Shown here: in pieces, positions 446 to 49,873 of the stretch
Position numbering within the stretch: the stretch's first letter is position 1
Layout: each line of letters opens with the position of its first letter
From: Patescibacteria group bacterium
GTDB taxonomy: Bacteria; Patescibacteriota; Minisyncoccia; Phycocordibacterales; PALSA-1337
Reading direction: 5' to 3'
Length of the DNA stretch: 64,000 bases
Assembly (NCBI GenBank): GCA_018971685.1
Contig: JAGXAG010000003.1
Location: 24,366-88,365 of the forward strand
The notes under the pieces: model-generated
Seen by the model: the letters and a program-made list of their open reading frames with translations, nothing else
Database searches by the model: none
Told to the model about the DNA's origin: nothing
Made by a program: the position numbers and the translations under genes

Positions 446-521
446 GCCACCTTAGCTCAGTTGGTAGAGCACCGCTTTTGTAAAGCGGCTGTCCTCGGTT
501 CGAGTCCGAGAGGTGGCTCCA
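446..521 (+). tRNA. tRNA-Thr (anticodon TGT)
   Basis: 76-nt cloverleaf read by hand. Acceptor GCCACCT/AGGTGGC, D stem GCTC/GAGC, anticodon stem CCGCT/AGCGG with loop TTTGTAA, T stem CTCGG/CCGAG with loop TTCGAGT, discriminator T and an encoded CCA. Confidence 0.85.
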
Positions 522-548: not shown

Positions 549-770
549 ATGATTAAACCGGGGATTTACAAGCATTCCAAAACAGGTCATGAATACAGGG
601 TTCATTTTACTGCCAAGCATTCGGAGACATTGGAGAACTTGGTAATTTACGAGGCTTTGTACGATAATAACAAATCAAAATTCTGGGCAAGACCGGCGAC
701 AATGTTTACGGAAGGGGTCGAAATTGATGGCAAGAAAGTTCCGAGATTTCAATTTGTAAGAGAAAATTAA
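549..770 (+). CDS. DUF1653 family small protein
   Basis: 73 aa, [30 protein letters not shown] motif pattern typical of DUF1653 proteins. Confidence 0.6.
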
Positions 771-790
771 TCGATCAACTGACGAAAACC

Positions 791-1933
791 ATGCGACACA
801 CAATAACGATAAAAGATCCGGCCGAGAATGAAATGCGGGCAATATTGGAAAAGCGGGACGATTTCAAGAGTTTGCGGATAAAGAAATTGCTGGCACTGCC
901 GGACCTGACCAAGAAGCCCAATTCGCCGGTAAAAATCCTGTTTGACAGAATATTGGAATTGCCAAGATTCAGAGACTTCGATATCGTGGAATTTCCGAAA
1001 ATCGTGACCGTGGAGCAGGATTTCGATCTGCTCAATACGCCCAAAGATCATCCCAGCCGCCGCGAAACCGACACTTATTATGTCACCGATAAATATTTGT
1101 TGCGTACCCAAATGACCGCCTTTTGGTCTTTTTATTTGAAAGACGAGGAAGTATTGAAAAGATTGGAGACTGAAGGCGAGATAAGGGCATTATCGCCGGG
1201 CATTGTCTACCGCAAGGACGAGATAGACCGCCATCATTTTCCGGCTTTTCACCAAATCGACGGTCTGCTTATCTGCAAGAAATCAAAGAAAGTAATTGAT
1301 CAGAATGAATTGAAAGCTGTGCAAGTGGACTTGGCCCAAGGCATATTCGGCAAAGACATAGAATATAAATTCTTAGATGATGATTTCCCGTATACGGTGG
1401 AGAGTCTAGAAATGGACATAAAGTTCAACGGTGATTGGCTAGAAGTAAATGGTGCAGGACTGGTCAACCCGGTCGTGCTCGAGAATTTCGGACTTGACCC
1501 GGAAGTTTACAACGGCTGGGCTTTCGGCTTTGGCGAGCGGCTGGCGATGATCAAGATGGGCATACCGGACATACGCATCCTCTGGTCTGACGATCAGAGG
1601 ATCACAAGCCAATTCAAAGACATTGATTCGAAATTCAAAGAAGTCAGCAGATATCCGGCGGTGGTGCGCGACATTTCATTCGTAGTCGATTCCAATGTCG
1701 CCTTGAACAATTATTTTGAGATTGTGCGCGAGATCGGCGGCAATCTGATCGAAGAAGTGAAGCTCACCGACAAGTATGAAAACGCCGAAAAGTTCGGCAA
1801 AGGGAAAATCAGTTACACTTTCCGCATAGTTTACCGTTCTTTCGAGCGCACGCTCACCAATGAAGAGGTTAATGCCATACACGCAAAAATTCAAGACAAA
1901 ACAATTAAAGAATTGGGTGCGACAGTGAGATAA
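791..1933 (+). CDS. pheS: phenylalanine--tRNA ligase, monomeric mitochondrial-type (PheS catalytic core fused to a C-terminal FDX-ACB anticodon-binding domain)
   Basis: Class II motifs are present. Motif 1 region is DHPSRRETDTYYV..LLRTQMTAF, motif 2 is VYRKDEIDRHHFPAFHQIDGL and motif 3 is GWAFGFGERLAMIKMGIPDIRILW. The C-terminus SRYPAVVRDISFVV..IVREIGGNLIEEVKLTDKY..YRIVYRSFERTLTNEEVNAIH matches the FDX-ACB domain of monomeric PheRS and PheT C-termini. Confidence 0.8.
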   Translation: MRHTITIKDPAENEMRAILEKRDDFKSLRIKKLLALPDLTKKPNSPVKILFDRILELPRFRDFDIVEFPKIVTVEQDFDLLNTPKDHPSRRETDTYYVTDKYLLRTQMTAFWSFYLKDEEVLKRLETEGEIRALSPGIVYRKDEIDRHHFPAFHQIDGLLICKKSKKVIDQNELKAVQVDLAQGIFGKDIEYKFLDDDFPYTVESLEMDIKFNGDWLEVNGAGLVNPVVLENFGLDPEVYNGWAFGFGERLAMIKMGIPDIRILWSDDQRITSQFKDIDSKFKEVSRYPAVVRDISFVVDSNVALNNYFEIVREIGGNLIEEVKLTDKYENAEKFGKGKISYTFRIVYRSFERTLTNEEVNAIHAKIQDKTIKELGATVR

Positions 1934-2179: not shown

Positions 2180-4384
<2,205 letters not shown>

Positions 4385-9649: not shown

Positions 9650-10225
9650 TTAAAATGGTAAGGTGAAAGTCATCATGCTATGCACTGGTACTTCCCAGTG
9701 AGAAGTATCAAGTTTTACTTCTTTGATTGTACCATTATCTCTGTATTTGAGCGAATTGTTGGCCAATGCGTATTTGTAAAGCTCCTTGGTTATACGCACA
9801 TCGTCGATGCAATATTTTACAACTTTGTCTGTCTCGCCGTTATTCCACCAGACAATGGCGTCCATGCCGCTACCGCTCTTGTTCTCGCCCAAGGTTGCCG
9901 CGGCAACGGTATCGAGCTTCAATCTTCGGCCCAATGATCTCTGTACTTCTTTCATCATATCGACATGTTTTATTTTGCCGAGGTCGCCCGGATAGTATTT
10001 GTTCAATATCGGCAGGTCGAAATGTTCGCCGTTCCATGTGATCAATATGTCCGCTTGTTCCAAGATGGGCCACAGATTGCCGAGCTCGTTCTCGAAGTAG
10101 TGTTTGTACTGATCGTCTTCGGAATCGTGCGCGCAGATCACGGACAAGTCAAGATCCGCCGGATCGTTCGAGCCGACATCTTGGAAAGAGTTCTTTGTTT
10201 CCAGATCAAAGGTGATTTTTCTCAT
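9650..10225 (-). CDS. RNase H-like 3'-5' exonuclease domain protein (YprB/PolB-exo-like)
   Basis: DEDD-type acidic motifs FDLET, WNGEHFDLPIL and YCIDDV. 191 aa. Overlaps the hisS stop by 4 nt, consistent with operon context. Confidence 0.55.
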   Translation of the reverse strand: MRKITFDLETKNSFQDVGSNDPADLDLSVICAHDSEDDQYKHYFENELGNLWPILEQADILITWNGEHFDLPILNKYYPGDLGKIKHVDMMKEVQRSLGRRLKLDTVAAATLGENKSGSGMDAIVWWNNGETDKVVKYCIDDVRITKELYKYALANNSLKYRDNGTIKEVKLDTSHWEVPVHSMMTFTLPF

Positions 10226-11505
10226 AAGACAAATTCACTTTCTGCCGTAACGGTTTCATCGCCGGATTTCAGATCTTTGACGCGAAACCTGCCGGTTTTG
10301 GCTTCTTCGTCGCCGATACAGATAATCTTGGGAATGCCGCGCTTGTCGGCCCAAGCTATCTGGTCACCAACTTTTCTGTCCGTTAGGTTGGTAGATACAT
10401 TTATCCCCTTGGCACGGAGCCTGACTGCTAATTCTTGGGCATTTGGAATGAACTTTTCTTCCAGGGTACAAATATGGATTTCGGTCGGATTTTTAATGTC
10501 GGGTAATAACTTGTGAGTTTCTAGGAAGTTTCGAATGGTCACATCGCCCATACCAAAACCGACTGCCGGTATTCTGTCGCCCCCGAATAGGGAAGTGAGG
10601 TCGTCATATCTGCCGCCGCCAAAGAGCGAACGCTTGTTTTCCGGATTGGTGTCGAATATCTCGAACACTACGCCGGTGTAGTAATCGAAGCCGCGAACAA
10701 CGGTGGTCAAATCTATCCGCGCATTAGTGATACTCAAATTTTCAAGTCTCTTAATTATCTGTTTAAGTTTTAAATTCAATTTCTTGTCTATCGCCTCCCA
10801 ATCAATTCCTTTTCCTGAAACGATCTCCGGCGTCAGATTCGTATCAATCTCTTTTAGCCCCCTCATATATTTTTCCGGATCTTTATCTTTTGTATCTAAC
10901 AGGCGGAAGAGTTTTTTCTTGTTTTCTTCGGTTTTCGTAAAATCGCCGAGCTCTACCGCTAACCAATCAAGCCATCTGCGGTCGCCAATCTTAATTGAGA
11001 AATCCTCATCTTTTGCCCCGAAATTTTTCATTATTTGATGGGCCAGAGAAATTATTTCTATATCAGCCTCTATTGAATCAATTCCAAACAAATCCACATT
11101 CAACTGCCAATGTTCTCGTACGCGACCTCGTTGAGGTTGTTCATATCTGAATAGATTGGGTATTGAATACCAGCGTAAAGGCAGTCCCAATTCACGGCGT
11201 TTGGCAGTTACCATTCGGGCGACCGTCGGAGTCATTTCCGGACGCAGGGTAACCTCGCGGCTGCCGCGGTCGGTAAATGTATAGGTCTGCTCGTTGACGA
11301 TCTCTTCGCCGGTCTTGGCGCGGTAAAGTTCGGCCGGTTCGAGAACGGACGCGCCGTATTCTTCGTAACCGTATTTCTCGCAGATATTGCGCCAGACGCC
11401 GAATATGCGCTTTTGTATGGCCATGTCTTCCGGAAAGAAATCACGTACGCCTTTGTATGGCTCGGTCGAGAGTTTCTTTGCCTTGTTCCGGTCGCTATTT
11501 GTCAT
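10222..11505 (-). CDS. hisS: histidine--tRNA ligase
   Basis: 427 aa. HisRS signatures RPEMTPTVARM, LRWYSIPNLFRYEQPQRGRVREHWQ and GGGRYDDL, with a C-terminal anticodon-binding domain. Confidence 0.9.
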   Translation of the reverse strand: MTNSDRNKAKKLSTEPYKGVRDFFPEDMAIQKRIFGVWRNICEKYGYEEYGASVLEPAELYRAKTGEEIVNEQTYTFTDRGSREVTLRPEMTPTVARMVTAKRRELGLPLRWYSIPNLFRYEQPQRGRVREHWQLNVDLFGIDSIEADIEIISLAHQIMKNFGAKDEDFSIKIGDRRWLDWLAVELGDFTKTEENKKKLFRLLDTKDKDPEKYMRGLKEIDTNLTPEIVSGKGIDWEAIDKKLNLKLKQIIKRLENLSITNARIDLTTVVRGFDYYTGVVFEIFDTNPENKRSLFGGGRYDDLTSLFGGDRIPAVGFGMGDVTIRNFLETHKLLPDIKNPTEIHICTLEEKFIPNAQELAVRLRAKGINVSTNLTDRKVGDQIAWADKRGIPKIICIGDEEAKTGRFRVKDLKSGDETVTAESEFVL

Positions 11506-38773: not shown

Positions 38774-41260
38774 ATGGCAAAAAAGAACGAAAAAAACGCG
38801 CCGGAAAATGGCAAAAACACGGCGGAACCGGCGGTTGACGCGGGCGTTTTGCAGCAACCGATAGCGGAAGAAATGCGCCGGTCATTCCTGGACTATGCCA
38901 TGTCCGTGATTACCGACCGCGCTTTGCCCGATGTGCGTGATGGTTTGAAGCCGGTGCACCGCAGGATCTTGTATGCCATGCATGAAAAAGGCCTTACCGC
39001 CGCCGCCAAATTCCGCAAATCGGCCGTGGTAGTCGGCGATGTGCTCGGCAATTATCACCCACACAGCGATGCCGCCGTTTACGATTCGATGGTCAAAATG
39101 GCCCAAGAATTTAGCATGCGCTATCCGCTGGTGCAAGGTCAAGGAAACTTCGGCACCATCGACGGCGACAGCGCCGCCGCCATGCGTTATACCGAAGCCA
39201 GAATGTCCAAGATTGCCGCCGAACTTTTGAAAGATATAGACAAAGACACCGTCGATTTTCGCCCCAATTACGACGGCACCAAGAAAGAGCCGATCGTCTT
39301 GCCGACTTCGGTGCCAAACCTGCTCTTGAACGGCACGCTCGGCATTGCAGTCGGCATGGCGACCAACATTGCGCCGCATAACCTGAATGAAATCGCCGAC
39401 GCGGCTATCCATCTAGTCGACAATCCCGAAGCCACAACCGAAGACCTCGTGCGGTTCGTCAAAGGTCCCGATTTCCCGACCGGCGGAGTCATGTACGGCG
39501 AGAAAGACATACATCACGCCTATGCGACCGGCCGCGGCGGCATCGTCGTGCGCGGCGAAGCGGAAATCGTCGAGGACAAAAAAGGCCAATTCCAAATCGT
39601 CATAAGTTCCATCCCTTACCGCGTGAACAAAGCGTCGCTCATAATGCGCATAGCCGATCTGGTGCGAGAAAAGACGATCGAAGGCATCAAAGCTTTGCGC
39701 GACGAATCGACCAAAGACATCCGCATCGCGATCGATCTCAAGCAGGGCTCATTCCCGGAAAAGATCCTAAACCAGCTCTACAAGCACACCCAGCTCGAAG
39801 AATCATTCCATGTCAACATGGTCGCGTTGGTCGACGGCGTGCCGCACACGCTCGGATTAAAATCGATTTTGGCGGAATTCGTCGATCACCGCGTCACCGT
39901 CATCCGCCGGCGCACGCAGTTTGACCTCAACAGAGCCGAGGAAAGAGAACACATACTTCTGGGACTGAAAAAGGCGCTCGATCACATCGACGAGATCATC
40001 ACTTTGATCCGCGCTTCCAAAGATGTCGCCGAAGCCCATGCCGGCCTGATGAAGAAGTTCAAATTCAGCGACAAGCAGGCGACCGCCATTCTGGAAATGA
40101 AATTACAAAAGCTGGCCGGGCTTGAGCGCAAGAAGGTGCTTGACGAGCTGAAACAAGTCCAGGAATTAATCGCCGAATTGAAGGAGATTTTGGGGAGCGA
40201 AAAGAAAGTCCGCGGTATCATCAAGACCGAGCTCGGCGAAGTAAAAGCCAAATACGGCGATGCACGCCGGACCAAACTGGTCAAGCACGGCGTCAAAGAA
40301 TTCAGCGCCGAAGACCTGATCGCCGACGAAGAATCCGTTTTGGTTCTCACCAAGGGTGGCTACATCAAGCGCACCGATCCCGCCGAATACAGGAAGCAAA
40401 AGCGCGGCGGCGTCGGCGTTGTCGACTTGGACACCAAGGAAGAAGACTTCATCTCGCATTTGGTCTACGCGACCACGCACAGCGACCTTTTGTTCTTCAG
40501 CGACAAAGGCAAGGCGTATCAGATCAAAATGCACGAAATCCCCGAAGGCAAGCGCGCCACCAAAGGCAAGTCGATCATGAATTTCCTTTCCCTGGCGGAA
40601 GGGGAAAGAGTGACCTCGATCTTGCCGATGCCAAAAGACAAGAAGTCCGCCGAAGGTTTGGCTTTGATGATGATCACAAAGAACGGTACCGGCAAGAAGA
40701 CTTCGGCTGGCCATTTCAAGGATGTTAGAAGGTCCGGCCTTATCGCCATCACACTCGACCAAGGCGACGAATTGATGTCGGCATCATTCGTGTCCAAGAG
40801 TGAAGAGGCGGTTATCGCGACCAAAGAAGGGCAATCAATCCGATTCAAAGAATCCGATGTGCGTGAAATGGGGCGCAATGCCGCCGGCGTTCGGGTGATC
40901 CGTCTGGGGAAGGGCGATGAAGTCATTTCCGCCGATATTGTCTCCAAAGGATCAAAAGGAGCTATGCTATTTGTCATGAGCGCCAACGGTTACGGCAAAA
41001 AGACCGAACTTTCCGAATACAAGACGCAAAAGCGCGGTGGTTCCGGCATACTGACCATGAAAGTAACCGCCAAGACAGGACCGCTCATGGCTGCCAAAGT
41101 CATCACCGAAATCGACGAGGAGATCGTTGCCATGTCCAAAAAAAGCCAGGTCATCCGCGTCGATCTGAAAGAGATTCCGGCGCTTTCCCGCGCTACCCAA
41201 GGCGTGCGCGTGATGAAGTTACGCGACGGCGACGCTCTCGCGAGCTTGATTTGTCTGTAA
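38774..41260 (+). CDS. gyrA: DNA gyrase subunit A
   Basis: [44 protein letters not shown] (active-site Tyr region) and C-terminal beta-pinwheel repeats. Confidence 0.9.
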
Positions 41261-48391: not shown

Positions 48392-49873
48392 TCACCAACG
48401 ATCGAATTTCAATCGAAGCGTTGATGATTGGACTCCCGGCCTAAGCCGGAGTCGTAGCTCCTTGTGAGGTATTCTGCCTGTGGGCTTAACCTCACCCGAA
48501 GTCGGTTGTACGATTTTCCCGTCAAGGGCTGCATCGTACTGATCCGCATTGGCACTCATGTGAATGCCAAGTCCCCAGCCGTTGGGGATGACGACTTCTA
48601 CATCGTCTCCTGCGTAGACTGTAGTCTCCGGGAGCGTGAAGCCGTCTATACCGCTATCCACCAAGCACTGTGCCGGCTTTATCACCCTCGTTGGTCCGAA
48701 GTCTTTCGGCCACTGTTTGGCGGTCGTTTGATTATCACCGACCGATGTCGGAGTCGAACCACTGCGCCGTGCCGGTTCGCCATTGATCATGACAACATTG
48801 CTGTTGCCGCTGATCACGACATTGCCGTGTCCGACGACGATGAAGTTACCGTTGCCGTCAACACTACCGCCTGTGTTCGATGGAATAGGTGATGGCGCCG
48901 GCGTCACCACTGATGCTGTTGCAGGACCGGCGTTACTCACTTTGCTCGCCTTTTTCGTGAGCCTGTCTTTAATCGACAGGGCGAGTAACACGATTATTCC
49001 ACATGCCGTTATACCAACCAACGGACCAAACCACCCTGTCCCAACTACTTTTTGTAGTTTTTTGGTCATGCCACGGACTAACCAGTGGGACTCTTCTTTT
49101 TGTTGTTCTGTAGTCGGAGGTACCGGTGGAACCGTTGGGGTAGGCGCCGGTGCAGGCGTCGGTTGCGGTATCGGCTTCCTGGAAGCCAGTTTTGCCGTTT
49201 CAGCCGCGTGATGTCTCCGAAGCTCGGAAACAACCTCCTGCAGCTTGTCCCATTCCGGGTTTGCGTTGGACGCCTTGAACGAGTCGATTTGCAGTCCCAT
49301 TTCGTCCATCGCCACCGCCATATCGTTCAGCATCCTTCCGGATGGGATGATAGTTCCCGCTTCGATTTTCATGAGGTTATCCCTAATCCTTTTGAGGCGG
49401 GTCTTTATTATGTTGAACTCTGCCGGCAGTTTCTTTGAGGGAGGCGGCACTGGTGGAACCGGTTTTGTCGGTTCCGGCGCGGGAGTTGGCGGTGGAGGAG
49501 TGGGTGGGACGGGAGCCGGTTTTTCAACCGGTTTCTCCGTGAGGATCTTCCCGTCGTTGCTGATCCAGATTTCCTTTTCCCACTTATCCTCACTTCGCAA
49601 TTCGTCTCCGATCAACGCGTAAACTTCCAAGGAATACGCTACGCCCTTTTTCGGATGTCCCGTGTGCCACTTCAAGAACTCAGTGTCCTTGAGAGTGATT
49701 TGCGAGTTGGGCAGGAATTTTTCGACCATGTATGTTCCCGTCGCGGGAACCTTCTCCCCGTTTTTCGCCATAACTGTGATGGCGAAACCTTTTTGTGGCG
49801 GATATTCTGGACCCGCTGGACCTGCCTGGATCCAGAGAGTACCTTCGGTTATCTTGCAATAATCCTCGTTCAC
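48392..49873 (-). CDS. hypothetical bitopic protein with Pro-rich linkers and C-terminal beta-helix-like repeats
   Basis: Cytoplasmic N-domain, PAPVPPTPPPPTPAPEP and PIPQPTPAPAPTPTVPPVPP linkers, one TM (WFGPLVGITACGIIVLLALSI), then GNGNFIVVGHGNVVISGNSNVVMING repeats. Confidence 0.45.
   Translation of the reverse strand: MNEDYCKITEGTLWIQAGPAGPEYPPQKGFAITVMAKNGEKVPATGTYMVEKFLPNSQITLKDTEFLKWHTGHPKKGVAYSLEVYALIGDELRSEDKWEKEIWISNDGKILTEKPVEKPAPVPPTPPPPTPAPEPTKPVPPVPPPSKKLPAEFNIIKTRLKRIRDNLMKIEAGTIIPSGRMLNDMAVAMDEMGLQIDSFKASNANPEWDKLQEVVSELRRHHAAETAKLASRKPIPQPTPAPAPTPTVPPVPPTTEQQKEESHWLVRGMTKKLQKVVGTGWFGPLVGITACGIIVLLALSIKDRLTKKASKVSNAGPATASVVTPAPSPIPSNTGGSVDGNGNFIVVGHGNVVISGNSNVVMINGEPARRSGSTPTSVGDNQTTAKQWPKDFGPTRVIKPAQCLVDSGIDGFTLPETTVYAGDDVEVVIPNGWGLGIHMSANADQYDAALDGKIVQPTSGEVKPTGRIPHKELRLRLRPGVQSSTLRLKFDRW

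What the first reader, a model, noticed from the sequence alone, without database searches (positions are those of the whole stretch)
791..1933. Mitochondrial-type monomeric phenylalanyl-tRNA synthetase in a bacterium
The 380-aa protein combines a PheS class II catalytic core with a C-terminal domain that aligns along its length with the FDX-ACB anticodon-binding domain of monomeric organellar PheRS (SRYPAVVRDISFVV..REIGGNLIEEVKLTDKY..YRIVYRSFERTLTNEEVNAIH). Motif 2 (VYRKDEIDRHHFPAFHQIDG) is also closer to the organellar form. Canonical bacterial PheRS is an (alpha-beta)2 heterotetramer whose FDX-ACB domain sits on PheT. A single-chain enzyme implies no separate pheT and suits extreme genome reduction.
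Basis: partly seen in the sequence, partly recalled or inferred. Interest (0 to 1): 0.55.

Follow-up and report, generated by a model that had tools for sequence, protein, structure and literature searches.

The report
Single-chain mitochondrial-type PheRS in Parcubacteria
A tiny-genome bacterium of the Patescibacteria (Parcubacteria group) encodes a one-piece phenylalanyl-tRNA synthetase built like the human mitochondrial enzyme, and the gene sits exactly where related bacteria keep the usual two-subunit pheS-pheT genes, so it has most likely replaced them.

Summary
ORF 791-1933(+) encodes a 380-aa protein with a PheS-type class II core (residues 44-275) fused to an FDX-ACB anticodon-binding domain (286-380). 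Its confident AlphaFold model (pLDDT 95) superposes over both domains on human mitochondrial PheRS 3CMQ (TM 0.79).

The host is a Parcubacteria-group Patescibacterium. The protein is as conserved as GyrB (76-81% identity across genomes), has native base composition, and keeps the PheRS catalytic residues.

It is not the NCBIfam 'mystery ligase' SrmL (241 bits, cutoff 300). It also falls just under the mitochondrial equivalog cutoff (244 vs 258). It belongs to a bacterial sister clade of the eukaryotic/viral FARS2-like enzymes.

New here: four canonical Patescibacteria lineages have pheS-pheT-gyrB, and in this clade the single-chain gene occupies that same slot upstream of gyrB. Both of its domains are closest to other single-chain enzymes, not to local PheS or PheT. 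This points to gene displacement in place rather than a recent local fusion.

One fully tabulated canonical Paceibacteria genome lacks the single-chain form.

I could not check a whole single-chain-carrying genome for absence of pheT. 'Sole PheRS' is therefore well supported but inferred. No published description was found.

The parts
791..1933 (+). Gene for the 380-aa single-chain (PheRS-M-type) phenylalanyl-tRNA synthetase, including the stop codon
   Evidence: ORF. Pfam two-domain architecture. PDB best hit is human mtPheRS. AlphaFold model with pLDDT 95.3 and Foldseek best hit 3cmq.
791..919 (+). N-terminal helical extension (residues 1-43). It replaces the long coiled-coil Phe_tRNA-synt_N domain of canonical PheS, which is absent here.
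   Evidence: No PF02912 hit, whereas canonical CPR PheS proteins have it. The model shows a short strand plus helices at 10-21 and 25-34.
920..1615 (+). Class II PheS-type catalytic core (residues 44-275)
   Evidence: PF01409, E 4e-52. 38% identical to E. coli PheS residues 108-327.
1199..1264 (+). Motif 2, GIVYRKDEIDRHHFPAFHQIDG (residues 137-158). R141 equals E. coli R195 and Q155 equals Q208. D157 replaces the usual Glu (E. coli E210).
   Evidence: Residue mapping. Invariant in the clade. The FHQxD variant is common among clusters that pass the pheS_mito cutoff.
1385..1405 (+). Phe-pocket motif FPYTVES (residues 199-205); the canonical form is FPFTxPS. F199 equals E. coli F248, Y201 equals F250 and T202 equals T251.
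   Evidence: FPY also occurs in a bona fide canonical PheS, P0245, which passes TIGR00468.
1514..1549 (+). Motif 3, GWAFGFG-ERLAM (residues 242-253). A244 equals E. coli A294 and R250 equals R301. It is one residue shorter than in every other PheRS examined.
   Evidence: The gap appears in the HMMER alignment to FARS2 and in the alignment to E. coli. It is invariant in 14 clade members and absent from all 150 cluster representatives.
1646..1930 (+). FDX-ACB (ferredoxin-fold anticodon-binding) domain, residues 286-380
   Evidence: PF03147, E 3e-26. The model shows a beta-alpha-beta-beta-alpha pattern. It is included in the 388-column superposition on 3cmq. It is closer to the FDX-ACB of other single-chain enzymes (87-122 bits) than to any PheT tail (62 bits or less).
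2267..4384 (+). gyrB, the conserved downstream neighbour that anchors the 'PheRS slot'
   Evidence: Translation and Pfam. pheS-pheT-gyrB is seen in canonical Patescibacteria. Single-chain gene followed by gyrB is seen.
549..770 (+). DUF1653 gene, the conserved upstream neighbour of the single-chain gene in this clade
446..521 (+). tRNA-Thr(UGU), which lies upstream in the same housekeeping block (rpsB-tsf-...-tRNA-Thr-DUF1653-PheRS-gyrB-rpoD)

Best explanation
The gene encodes the cell's phenylalanyl-tRNA synthetase in a single polypeptide. The PheS-type class II core (motifs 1-3) activates phenylalanine with ATP and transfers it to tRNA-Phe. The fused C-terminal FDX-ACB domain reads the GAA anticodon, which is the job done by domain B8 of the beta subunit in ordinary bacterial (alpha-beta)2 PheRS. 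By analogy with human mitochondrial PheRS, the enzyme should work as a monomer that swings from a closed to an open state on tRNA binding, and it has no B3/B4 editing domain. In this Parcubacteria-group lineage the single-chain gene occupies the chromosomal slot immediately upstream of gyrB, the slot that holds pheS-pheT in related lineages. It therefore most likely displaced the two-subunit enzyme in place and is the only PheRS of the cell. Shown here: architecture, fold, conserved catalytic residues, family-wide conservation, synteny, and phylogenetic placement. Inferred: Phe specificity, the monomeric state, and absence of pheS/pheT elsewhere in the genome.
For: 1. Two-domain architecture with strong E-values.
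2. Best solved-structure relatives are human mtPheRS.
3. The model has pLDDT 95.3 and pTM 0.90, and superposes on 3cmq over 388 columns (TM 0.79/0.74, rmsd 3.0 A), against TM 0.58 for the open tRNA-bound form 3tup.
4. Catalytic residues are kept: motif-2 R141, Q155, F199, T202, A244, motif-3 R250. The variants D157, T109 and Y201 also occur in proteins that pass curated PheRS cutoffs.
5. Thousands of homologs exist, 76-87% identical across Parcubacteria-group MAGs. Identity of 76-81% equals that of GyrB and exceeds that of S2 and EF-Ts (54-70%) in the same genome pairs.
6. Synteny rpsB-tsf-DUF1653-gene-gyrB is conserved on contigs of 675 kb and 858 kb, and GC and GC3 are native.
7. pheS-pheT-gyrB is present in four canonical Patescibacteria lineages.
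8. Neither the window plus flank nor the gene-gyrB spacers contain any other PheS or PheT-like sequence or pheT remnants.
9. The complete 866-gene table of the canonical Ca. Yanofskyibacterium has one PF01409 gene and one PF03147 gene only, so it has no single-chain copy.
10. The top-120 lists of single-chain and PheT clusters share no contig.
Against: - No complete genome carrying the single-chain gene could be scanned, so absence of pheS/pheT there is not demonstrated.
- The protein scores below the curated cutoffs of all three relevant NCBIfam equivalogs: pheS_mito 244.4 vs 258.35, SrmL 241 vs 300, pheS 159 vs 237. NCBI annotates it as hypothetical.
- Motif 3 carries a clade-specific one-residue deletion next to the ATP-binding arginine. 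The effect of this deletion is unknown.
- A close relative (P0122, Oligoflexia) lies in a non-housekeeping context, where it may be an extra paralog.
- The sister family SrmL is of unknown function.
- No biochemical data exist.
Confidence: 0.8

Rival explanations
1. The protein is an accessory PheS-like paralog with a non-canonical job, as is suspected for the 'mystery ligase' SrmL. In this reading it coexists with an ordinary pheS-pheT pair located elsewhere in the genome.
For: It scores almost equally against SrmL and pheS_mito and passes neither cutoff. In NJ trees its clade groups with SrmL at 66-81% support. The related P0122 in an Oligoflexia MAG sits among non-housekeeping genes. Some Parcubacteria-group genomes do have canonical pheST.
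Against: True SrmL proteins score 387-446 bits, lack the FPF motif and have an altered motif 3. The window protein keeps the PheRS residues. It lies in the pheST slot next to gyrB in a housekeeping block. It is conserved like GyrB. A redundant aaRS paralog would be unusual in genomes of about 0.7-0.9 Mb. The fully tabulated canonical genome has no such paralog.
Confidence: 0.08
2. The gene arose recently and independently in this lineage by an in-frame deletion within the adjacent pheS-pheT genes, joining the PheS core to the PheT B8 domain. Its likeness to mitochondrial PheRS would then be convergent.
For: pheS and pheT are adjacent and sit in the same slot upstream of gyrB in related lineages. 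A deletion running from the 3' end of pheS to the start of B8 would give exactly this architecture.
Against: The catalytic half scores 213-256 bits against other single-chain enzymes but only 113 bits against the Kerfeldbacteria PheS. The FDX-ACB half scores 87-122 bits against them and at most 62 bits against any CPR PheT tail. All two-domain proteins form one clade apart from canonical PheS with 99-100% bootstrap support, even on the catalytic domain alone. No pheT remnants remain.
Confidence: 0.05
3. The gene is a recent acquisition from a eukaryote (a FARS2 copy) or from a large virus, or the contig is chimeric or contaminated.
For: The best PDB hits are eukaryotic. Single-chain PheRS genes are common on huge-phage and giant-virus contigs.
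Against: The identical gene in the same bacterial housekeeping context occurs on several independent assemblies. Synteny holds on contigs of 675 kb and 858 kb. Composition is native. The clade is not nested inside the eukaryote/viral group, which is itself monophyletic at 70-75%. Identity to viral copies is at most 42%, against 50-52% to other bacterial copies.
Confidence: 0.03

Closest known systems
Mitochondrial phenylalanyl-tRNA synthetase (human FARS2, yeast MSF1; 'PheRS-M' in AARS Online; PDB 3CMQ and 3TUP)
   Same: One chain with a PheS-type class II core followed by a C-terminal FDX-ACB anticodon-binding domain. There is no PheS N-terminal coiled coil and no beta-subunit editing or B-domains. 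The whole-chain fold matches (TM 0.79 to 3cmq). The length of motif 2 and the GWAFG signature are shared.
   Different: The host is a bacterium and the gene is chromosomal in a housekeeping block. Identity is only about 32-38%. It lacks the roughly 35-residue insertion of animal FARS2 between motif 2 and the FPF strand (the two-stretch alignment). It misses the TIGR00469 cutoff (244 vs 258). It belongs to a bacterial sister clade. It has a unique one-residue deletion in motif 3.
Canonical bacterial (alpha-beta)2 PheRS (PheS/PheT), including the short CPR-type PheT without B1/B2 (PMC5370408)
   Same: The catalytic chemistry and residues are the same as in PheS (38% identity to E. coli PheS 108-327). 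The FDX-ACB fold is the same as PheT domain B8. In Parcubacteria-group genomes it occupies the same position upstream of gyrB.
   Different: It is one gene instead of two. The PheS N-terminal domain, the B3/B4 editing domain, B5 and the catalytic-like B6/7 module are all absent. It is phylogenetically separate from canonical PheS at 99-100% support.
SrmL, 'PheS-related mystery ligase' (NCBIfam NF051887)
   Same: It has the same two-domain layout (a 349-position model that covers residues 45-369 of the window protein). It is the nearest neighbour clade in NJ trees.
   Different: The window protein scores 241 bits against a cutoff of 300, whereas real SrmL proteins score 387-446. SrmL lacks the FPF Phe-pocket motif and has GLALGMGLDRLVM in place of GWAFGxGxERLAM.
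Single-chain PheRS genes of huge phages and giant viruses
   Same: They are full-length, two-domain proteins of about 320-390 aa, and P0159 passes the pheS_mito cutoff.
   Different: They are at most 42% identical to the window protein. They fall in the eukaryote/viral group rather than the bacterial clade, and they are auxiliary genes of mobile genomes rather than a cell's housekeeping enzyme.

Membership tests
Single-chain (PheRS-M-type) phenylalanyl-tRNA synthetase, defined by architecture and fold | PheS-type class II catalytic core with motifs 2 and 3 and the Phe-pocket residues | tested here: met
   PF01409, E 4e-52. R141, Q155, F199, T202, A244 and R250 align to E. coli R195, Q208, F248, T251, A294 and R301.
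Single-chain (PheRS-M-type) phenylalanyl-tRNA synthetase, defined by architecture and fold | FDX-ACB anticodon-binding domain fused to the C-terminus of the same chain | tested here: met
   PF03147 at residues 286-380, E 3e-26. It is modelled with high confidence and included in the superposition on 3cmq.
Single-chain (PheRS-M-type) phenylalanyl-tRNA synthetase, defined by architecture and fold | Absence of the PheS N-terminal coiled coil and of all other beta-subunit domains | tested here: met
   Only two Pfam families hit the protein. Canonical CPR PheS and PheT show PF02912, PF03483, PF03484 and PF17759.
Single-chain (PheRS-M-type) phenylalanyl-tRNA synthetase, defined by architecture and fold | Catalytic domain groups with the other single-chain enzymes and apart from canonical PheS | tested here: met
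   NJ bootstrap support is 99% on all columns and 100% on the catalytic domain only. This is NJ only, and the canonical outgroup was small and chosen by similarity.
Single-chain (PheRS-M-type) phenylalanyl-tRNA synthetase, defined by architecture and fold | Monomeric quaternary state and Phe-tRNA-Phe synthesis | not testable with these tools
   This needs purified protein (SEC-MALS, aminoacylation assay). It is inferred only from the fold match to monomeric 3cmq.
Mitochondrial PheRS orthologs (NCBIfam/TIGRFAM TIGR00469 pheS_mito equivalog) | Score at or above the curated cutoff of 258.35 bits | tested here: not met
   It scores 244.4 bits. Neighbouring clusters P0121, P0131, P0133, P0135, P0136, P0138 and P0139 do pass. 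It is therefore not filed as a mitochondrial ortholog.
SrmL, PheS-related mystery ligase (NF051887) | Score at or above the curated cutoff of 300 bits | tested here: not met
   It scores 241.2 bits. True members score 387-446 bits and lack the FPF motif.
Canonical bacterial PheS alpha subunit (TIGR00468) | Score at or above 237.45 bits, presence of the N-terminal PF02912 domain, and a partner pheT | tested here: not met
   It scores 158.9 bits. There is no PF02912 hit. No pheT lies in the window or flank.
Sole PheRS of its genome (replacement of pheS-pheT) | No pheS or pheT anywhere in a genome that carries the single-chain gene | not testable with these tools
   Only about 74 kb of the source genome was readable. 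The indirect support is slot occupancy next to gyrB (vs 70, 74, 83, 84), GyrB-like conservation, and the absence of a single-chain copy from the fully tabulated canonical genome.

The most novel reading that the evidence does not exclude
Single-chain PheRS is not an invention of the eukaryotic or mitochondrial lineage. It would be an older bacterial or viral enzyme family that spreads horizontally, with huge phages and giant viruses carrying it, and that displaced the heterotetrameric pheS-pheT in place in a large Parcubacteria clade. Mitochondrial FARS2 would then descend from such a bacterial or viral donor rather than from an in-eukaryote fusion of alpha-proteobacterial pheS and pheT. A major bacterial radiation would also translate without any PheRS editing domain.
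Probability: 0.35. Interest if true: 0.8.

Novelty: new member of a known kind. Interest (0 to 1): 0.6.

Why it matters
Reviews treat monomeric PheRS as an organellar peculiarity: AARS Online and Douglas et al. name the family 'mitochondrial-like' (PMC11580382, PMC10810186). A large, abundant bacterial clade that uses this form as its housekeeping enzyme would matter in several ways:
- It shows the minimal PheRS design works in free-standing cells.
- These bacteria would lack the B3/B4 editing site that clears Tyr- and m-Tyr-tRNA-Phe, which raises questions about translational fidelity in ultra-small cells.
- It gives a bacterial outgroup for tracing the origin of FARS2, a human disease gene.
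- It gives a clean example of gene displacement in place at an essential locus.
- It exposes an annotation gap. NCBI calls these proteins hypothetical and IMG calls them alpha chains. The GTDB marker models pheS and pheT (from my memory of the bac120 set) would then be systematically missing in this clade, which could depress completeness estimates.

Tried and rejected
1. Looking for pheT inside the window. The only PheT-sized ORF (38774-41260) is GyrA. tblastn with E. coli and CPR PheS, PheT, IF3, L35 and L20 found nothing except this gene, so the usual infC-rpmI-rplT-pheST cluster is not in the window.

2. Whole-genome co-occurrence. The tools return at most +/-10 kb around a gene, so long contigs (675 kb and 858 kb) could not be scanned. 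This is suggestive, not decisive.

3. Literature. Nine full-text queries found no description of a bacterial monomeric PheRS or of SrmL. Supplement searches in four further papers found nothing.

4. SrmL identity was rejected on score and motifs.

5. A recent in-place pheS-pheT fusion was rejected by the domain-wise similarity and bootstrap results.

6. The three 'two-domain' tblastn HSPs in pheT loci were only over-extended alignments to ordinary pheS genes.

7. The active-site substitutions (E to D, S to T, FPF to FPY) were considered as signs of a changed substrate. This was rejected because the same variants occur in proteins that pass curated PheRS cutoffs.

Full report
**Observation.**
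- The ORF at 791-1933 (+) exists as described and encodes 380 aa containing the quoted peptides.
- Among solved structures, the best sequence matches are the human mitochondrial PheRS entries (E about 1e-59). Bacterial PheS chains match only the core, and PheT chains match only the last ~100 residues.
- An AlphaFold2 model built on a 61-sequence alignment is very confident (pLDDT 95.3, pTM 0.90).
- Its best PDB neighbour over the whole chain is 3CMQ, the closed form of human mtPheRS (TM 0.79/0.74, rmsd 3.0 A, 388 columns). The open tRNA-bound form 3TUP gives TM 0.58.
- The C-terminal domain is therefore a real FDX-ACB fold, docked as in the organellar enzyme.

**Organism and context.**
- The identical protein is recorded by NCBI as a 'hypothetical protein' of a Patescibacteria-group MAG.
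- The gene lies in a housekeeping block: rpsB - tsf - tRNA-Thr - DUF1653 - this gene - gyrB - rpoD - uvrD/addA-like - hisS.
- The order is conserved on contigs of 675 kb and 858 kb, about the size of a whole genome in this group.
- Close homologs (76-87% identity) occur in MAGs labelled Taylorbacteria, Staskawiczbacteria, 'Pacebacteria' and Parcubacteria. Taylorbacteria and Staskawiczbacteria belong to NCBI's Parcubacteria group.
- In the same genome pairs the protein is as conserved as GyrB (76-81% vs 77-80%) and more conserved than S2 or EF-Ts (54-70%).
- Its GC and GC3 are within the range of its neighbours.
- It behaves as a vertically inherited essential gene.

**Is it a PheRS?**
- Mapping onto E. 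coli PheS shows these residues retained: the motif-2 arginine (R141 = R195), Q155 (= Q208), F199 (= F248), T202 (= T251), A244 (= A294, known from the literature as a specificity determinant) and the motif-3 arginine (R250 = R301).
- Three substitutions are invariant in the clade: T109 for Ser, D157 for Glu, Y201 for Phe.
- The same variants occur widely in clusters that pass the curated pheS_mito cutoff, and FPY occurs in a canonical PheS that passes TIGR00468. They therefore lie within normal PheRS variation.
- One feature is unique to this tight clade. Motif 3 is one residue shorter (GWAFGFG-ERLAM) than in all 150 cluster representatives, FARS2 and E. coli. Its consequence is unknown.

**Family placement.**
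- NCBIfam gives near-equal scores to pheS_mito (244.4, cutoff 258.35) and to 'PheS-related mystery ligase SrmL' (241.2, cutoff 300). Canonical pheS scores 158.9 (cutoff 237.45).
- An exhaustive HMMER search of 1.8 billion cluster representatives found 247 relatives at E<=1e-30. Of the 150 best, 92 have the full two-domain layout.
- True SrmL proteins (387-446 bits) form a separate group that lacks the FPF motif. The window protein is not SrmL.
- In bootstrapped NJ trees all two-domain proteins separate from canonical PheS (99-100%, even on the catalytic domain alone).
- The window's clade has 100% support. It groups with other bacterial single-chain proteins and SrmL (66-81%). The remaining group is monophyletic at 70-75%.
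- Only two members of that remaining group have a known source: a choanoflagellate FARS2 and a huge-phage copy.
- The nearest bacterial relatives include an Oligoflexia MAG protein.
- They also include a protein from a genome that reads UGA as glycine (code 25, Gracilibacteria/Absconditabacteria type).
- The enzyme is thus a bacterial sister lineage of FARS2, not a recent import from eukaryotes.

**Does it replace pheS-pheT?**
- The window plus 10 kb of extra flank holds no other PheS or PheT-like sequence.
- Canonical enzymes do exist in Patescibacteria. A CPR-type operon thrS-infC-rpmI-rplT-pheS-pheT with a short 660-aa PheT was recovered. This is the short form noted by Mukai et al. (PMC5370408).
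- PheT homologs carry names such as Woyke-, Collier-, Gottesman-, Magasanik- and Kerfeldbacteria.
- Published gene tables show that Ca. Yanofskyibacterium parasiticum (Paceibacterales) has exactly one PF01409 gene (canonical PheS) and one PF03147 gene (PheT) among its 866 genes. It therefore has no single-chain copy (PMC10936435 Table S2).
- In Ca. Microsyncoccus PMX.50 the gene order is pheS - pheT - gyrB (PMC9763046).
- The same pheS-pheT-gyrB adjacency is present in a Kerfeldbacteria genome (L093) and on two further Patescibacteria contigs of 392 kb and 567 kb.
- In the window and in two other single-chain genomes, the single-chain gene is the one upstream of gyrB.
- The single-chain gene therefore sits in the pheST slot.
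- No pheT remnants remain in the spacer.
- Each half of the protein is much closer to other single-chain enzymes than to Parcubacteria PheS or PheT-B8: 213-256 vs 113 bits for the core, and 87-122 vs 62 bits or less for the FDX-ACB domain.
- This pattern fits displacement of pheST in place by a pre-existing single-chain gene. It does not fit a recent local pheS-pheT fusion.
- I could not scan a complete single-chain-carrying genome, so 'sole PheRS' remains an inference. I put it at about 0.8.

**Mechanism proposed.**
- The core activates Phe and aminoacylates tRNA-Phe, and the fused FDX-ACB domain recognises the anticodon.
- By analogy with the 3CMQ and 3TUP pair, the enzyme acts as a monomer that opens on tRNA binding.
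- There is no editing domain, so fidelity would rest on the synthetic site alone.
- Architecture, fold and residue conservation are shown here. Activity, specificity and oligomeric state are inferred.

**Comparison with what is known, and novelty.**
- The closest known system is mitochondrial PheRS (the 'PheRS-M' family).
- Reviews and databases treat that family as mitochondrial-like (PMC11580382, PMC10810186).
- Nine full-text searches found no report of a bacterial counterpart or of SrmL.
- Curators clearly know of prokaryotic PheS-like two-domain proteins, since the SrmL model exists. The finding is therefore best rated as a new member of a known kind, in the form of a distinct bacterial subclade.
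- It carries two added points of interest: replacement at the pheST locus, and the motif-3 deletion.

**Side observations.**
- Single-chain PheRS genes are frequent on huge-phage and giant-virus contigs: 46 viral contigs, many of 200-540 kb and one of 1.47 Mb.
- This offers a plausible vehicle for horizontal spread and bears on the origin of FARS2.

Noticed in passing
L006 (JGI Ga0210003_1000004, 494 kb), gene at 10001-11104; also L099-L144: A 367-aa single-chain PheRS (P0159, passes the pheS_mito cutoff) lies on a 494-kb contig with a terminase, a NUMOD homing endonuclease, T4-type RNA ligase, PNKP, ClpP and a GluRS/GlnRS-type synthetase, which looks like a huge phage. A scan of IMG/VR found 46 viral contigs with full-length single-chain PheRS genes, many of 200-540 kb, plus several giant-virus MAGs and one 1.47-Mb contig.
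   Followed up: partly
L015 9463-10833 and L016 154-1524 (P0126): A 456-aa single-chain PheRS from a 32% GC genome in which every gene has many in-frame TGA codons. In the PheRS gene the TGAs fall on conserved glycine columns, so the genome uses code 25 (Gracilibacteria/Absconditabacteria type). The database translation used Trp at those positions, which puts wrong residues in motif 3.
   Followed up: partly
P0224, P0247, P0266, P0207 (no loci fetched): True members of NCBIfam NF051887 'PheS-related mystery ligase SrmL' (387-446 bits) have the same two-domain layout but lack the FPF phenylalanine-pocket motif and have GLALGMGLDRLVM as motif 3. This suggests a substrate other than phenylalanine. 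They are the nearest neighbour clade of the bacterial single-chain PheRS group.
   Followed up: partly
L008 10001-11245 (P0122, Oligoflexia MAG GCA_019694465.1): A 414-aa single-chain PheRS-like protein, 52% identical to the window protein, sits among a beta-lactamase, enolase-superfamily genes and hypothetical genes in a non-CPR bacterium. There it may be an extra paralog rather than the housekeeping enzyme.
   Followed up: no
window 1514-1549 (motif 3): There is a one-residue deletion in class II motif 3 (GFG-ERLAM instead of GxGxERLAM), directly before the ATP-binding arginine. It is invariant in the window's clade and absent from all other PheRS sequences examined.
   Followed up: partly
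L093 4505-10032; L097 6435-12490; L098 6848-12685: The pheS-pheT-gyrB gene order recurs in canonical Parcubacteria-type genomes. In L097 a small gene with 23S_rRNA_IVP/bAvd domains is inserted between pheS and pheT.
   Followed up: partly
L009 4928-6910: A short 660-aa CPR-type PheT lacks the N-terminal B1/B2 (tRNA_bind) domains, as reported by Mukai et al. 2017. Full-length PheTs of about 795-807 aa with PF01588 occur in Kerfeldbacteria-like genomes, so both PheT forms exist within Patescibacteria.
   Followed up: no
window 48392-49873 (-): A 493-aa ORF has no Pfam match at E<=1e-5. It was not examined further.
   Followed up: no
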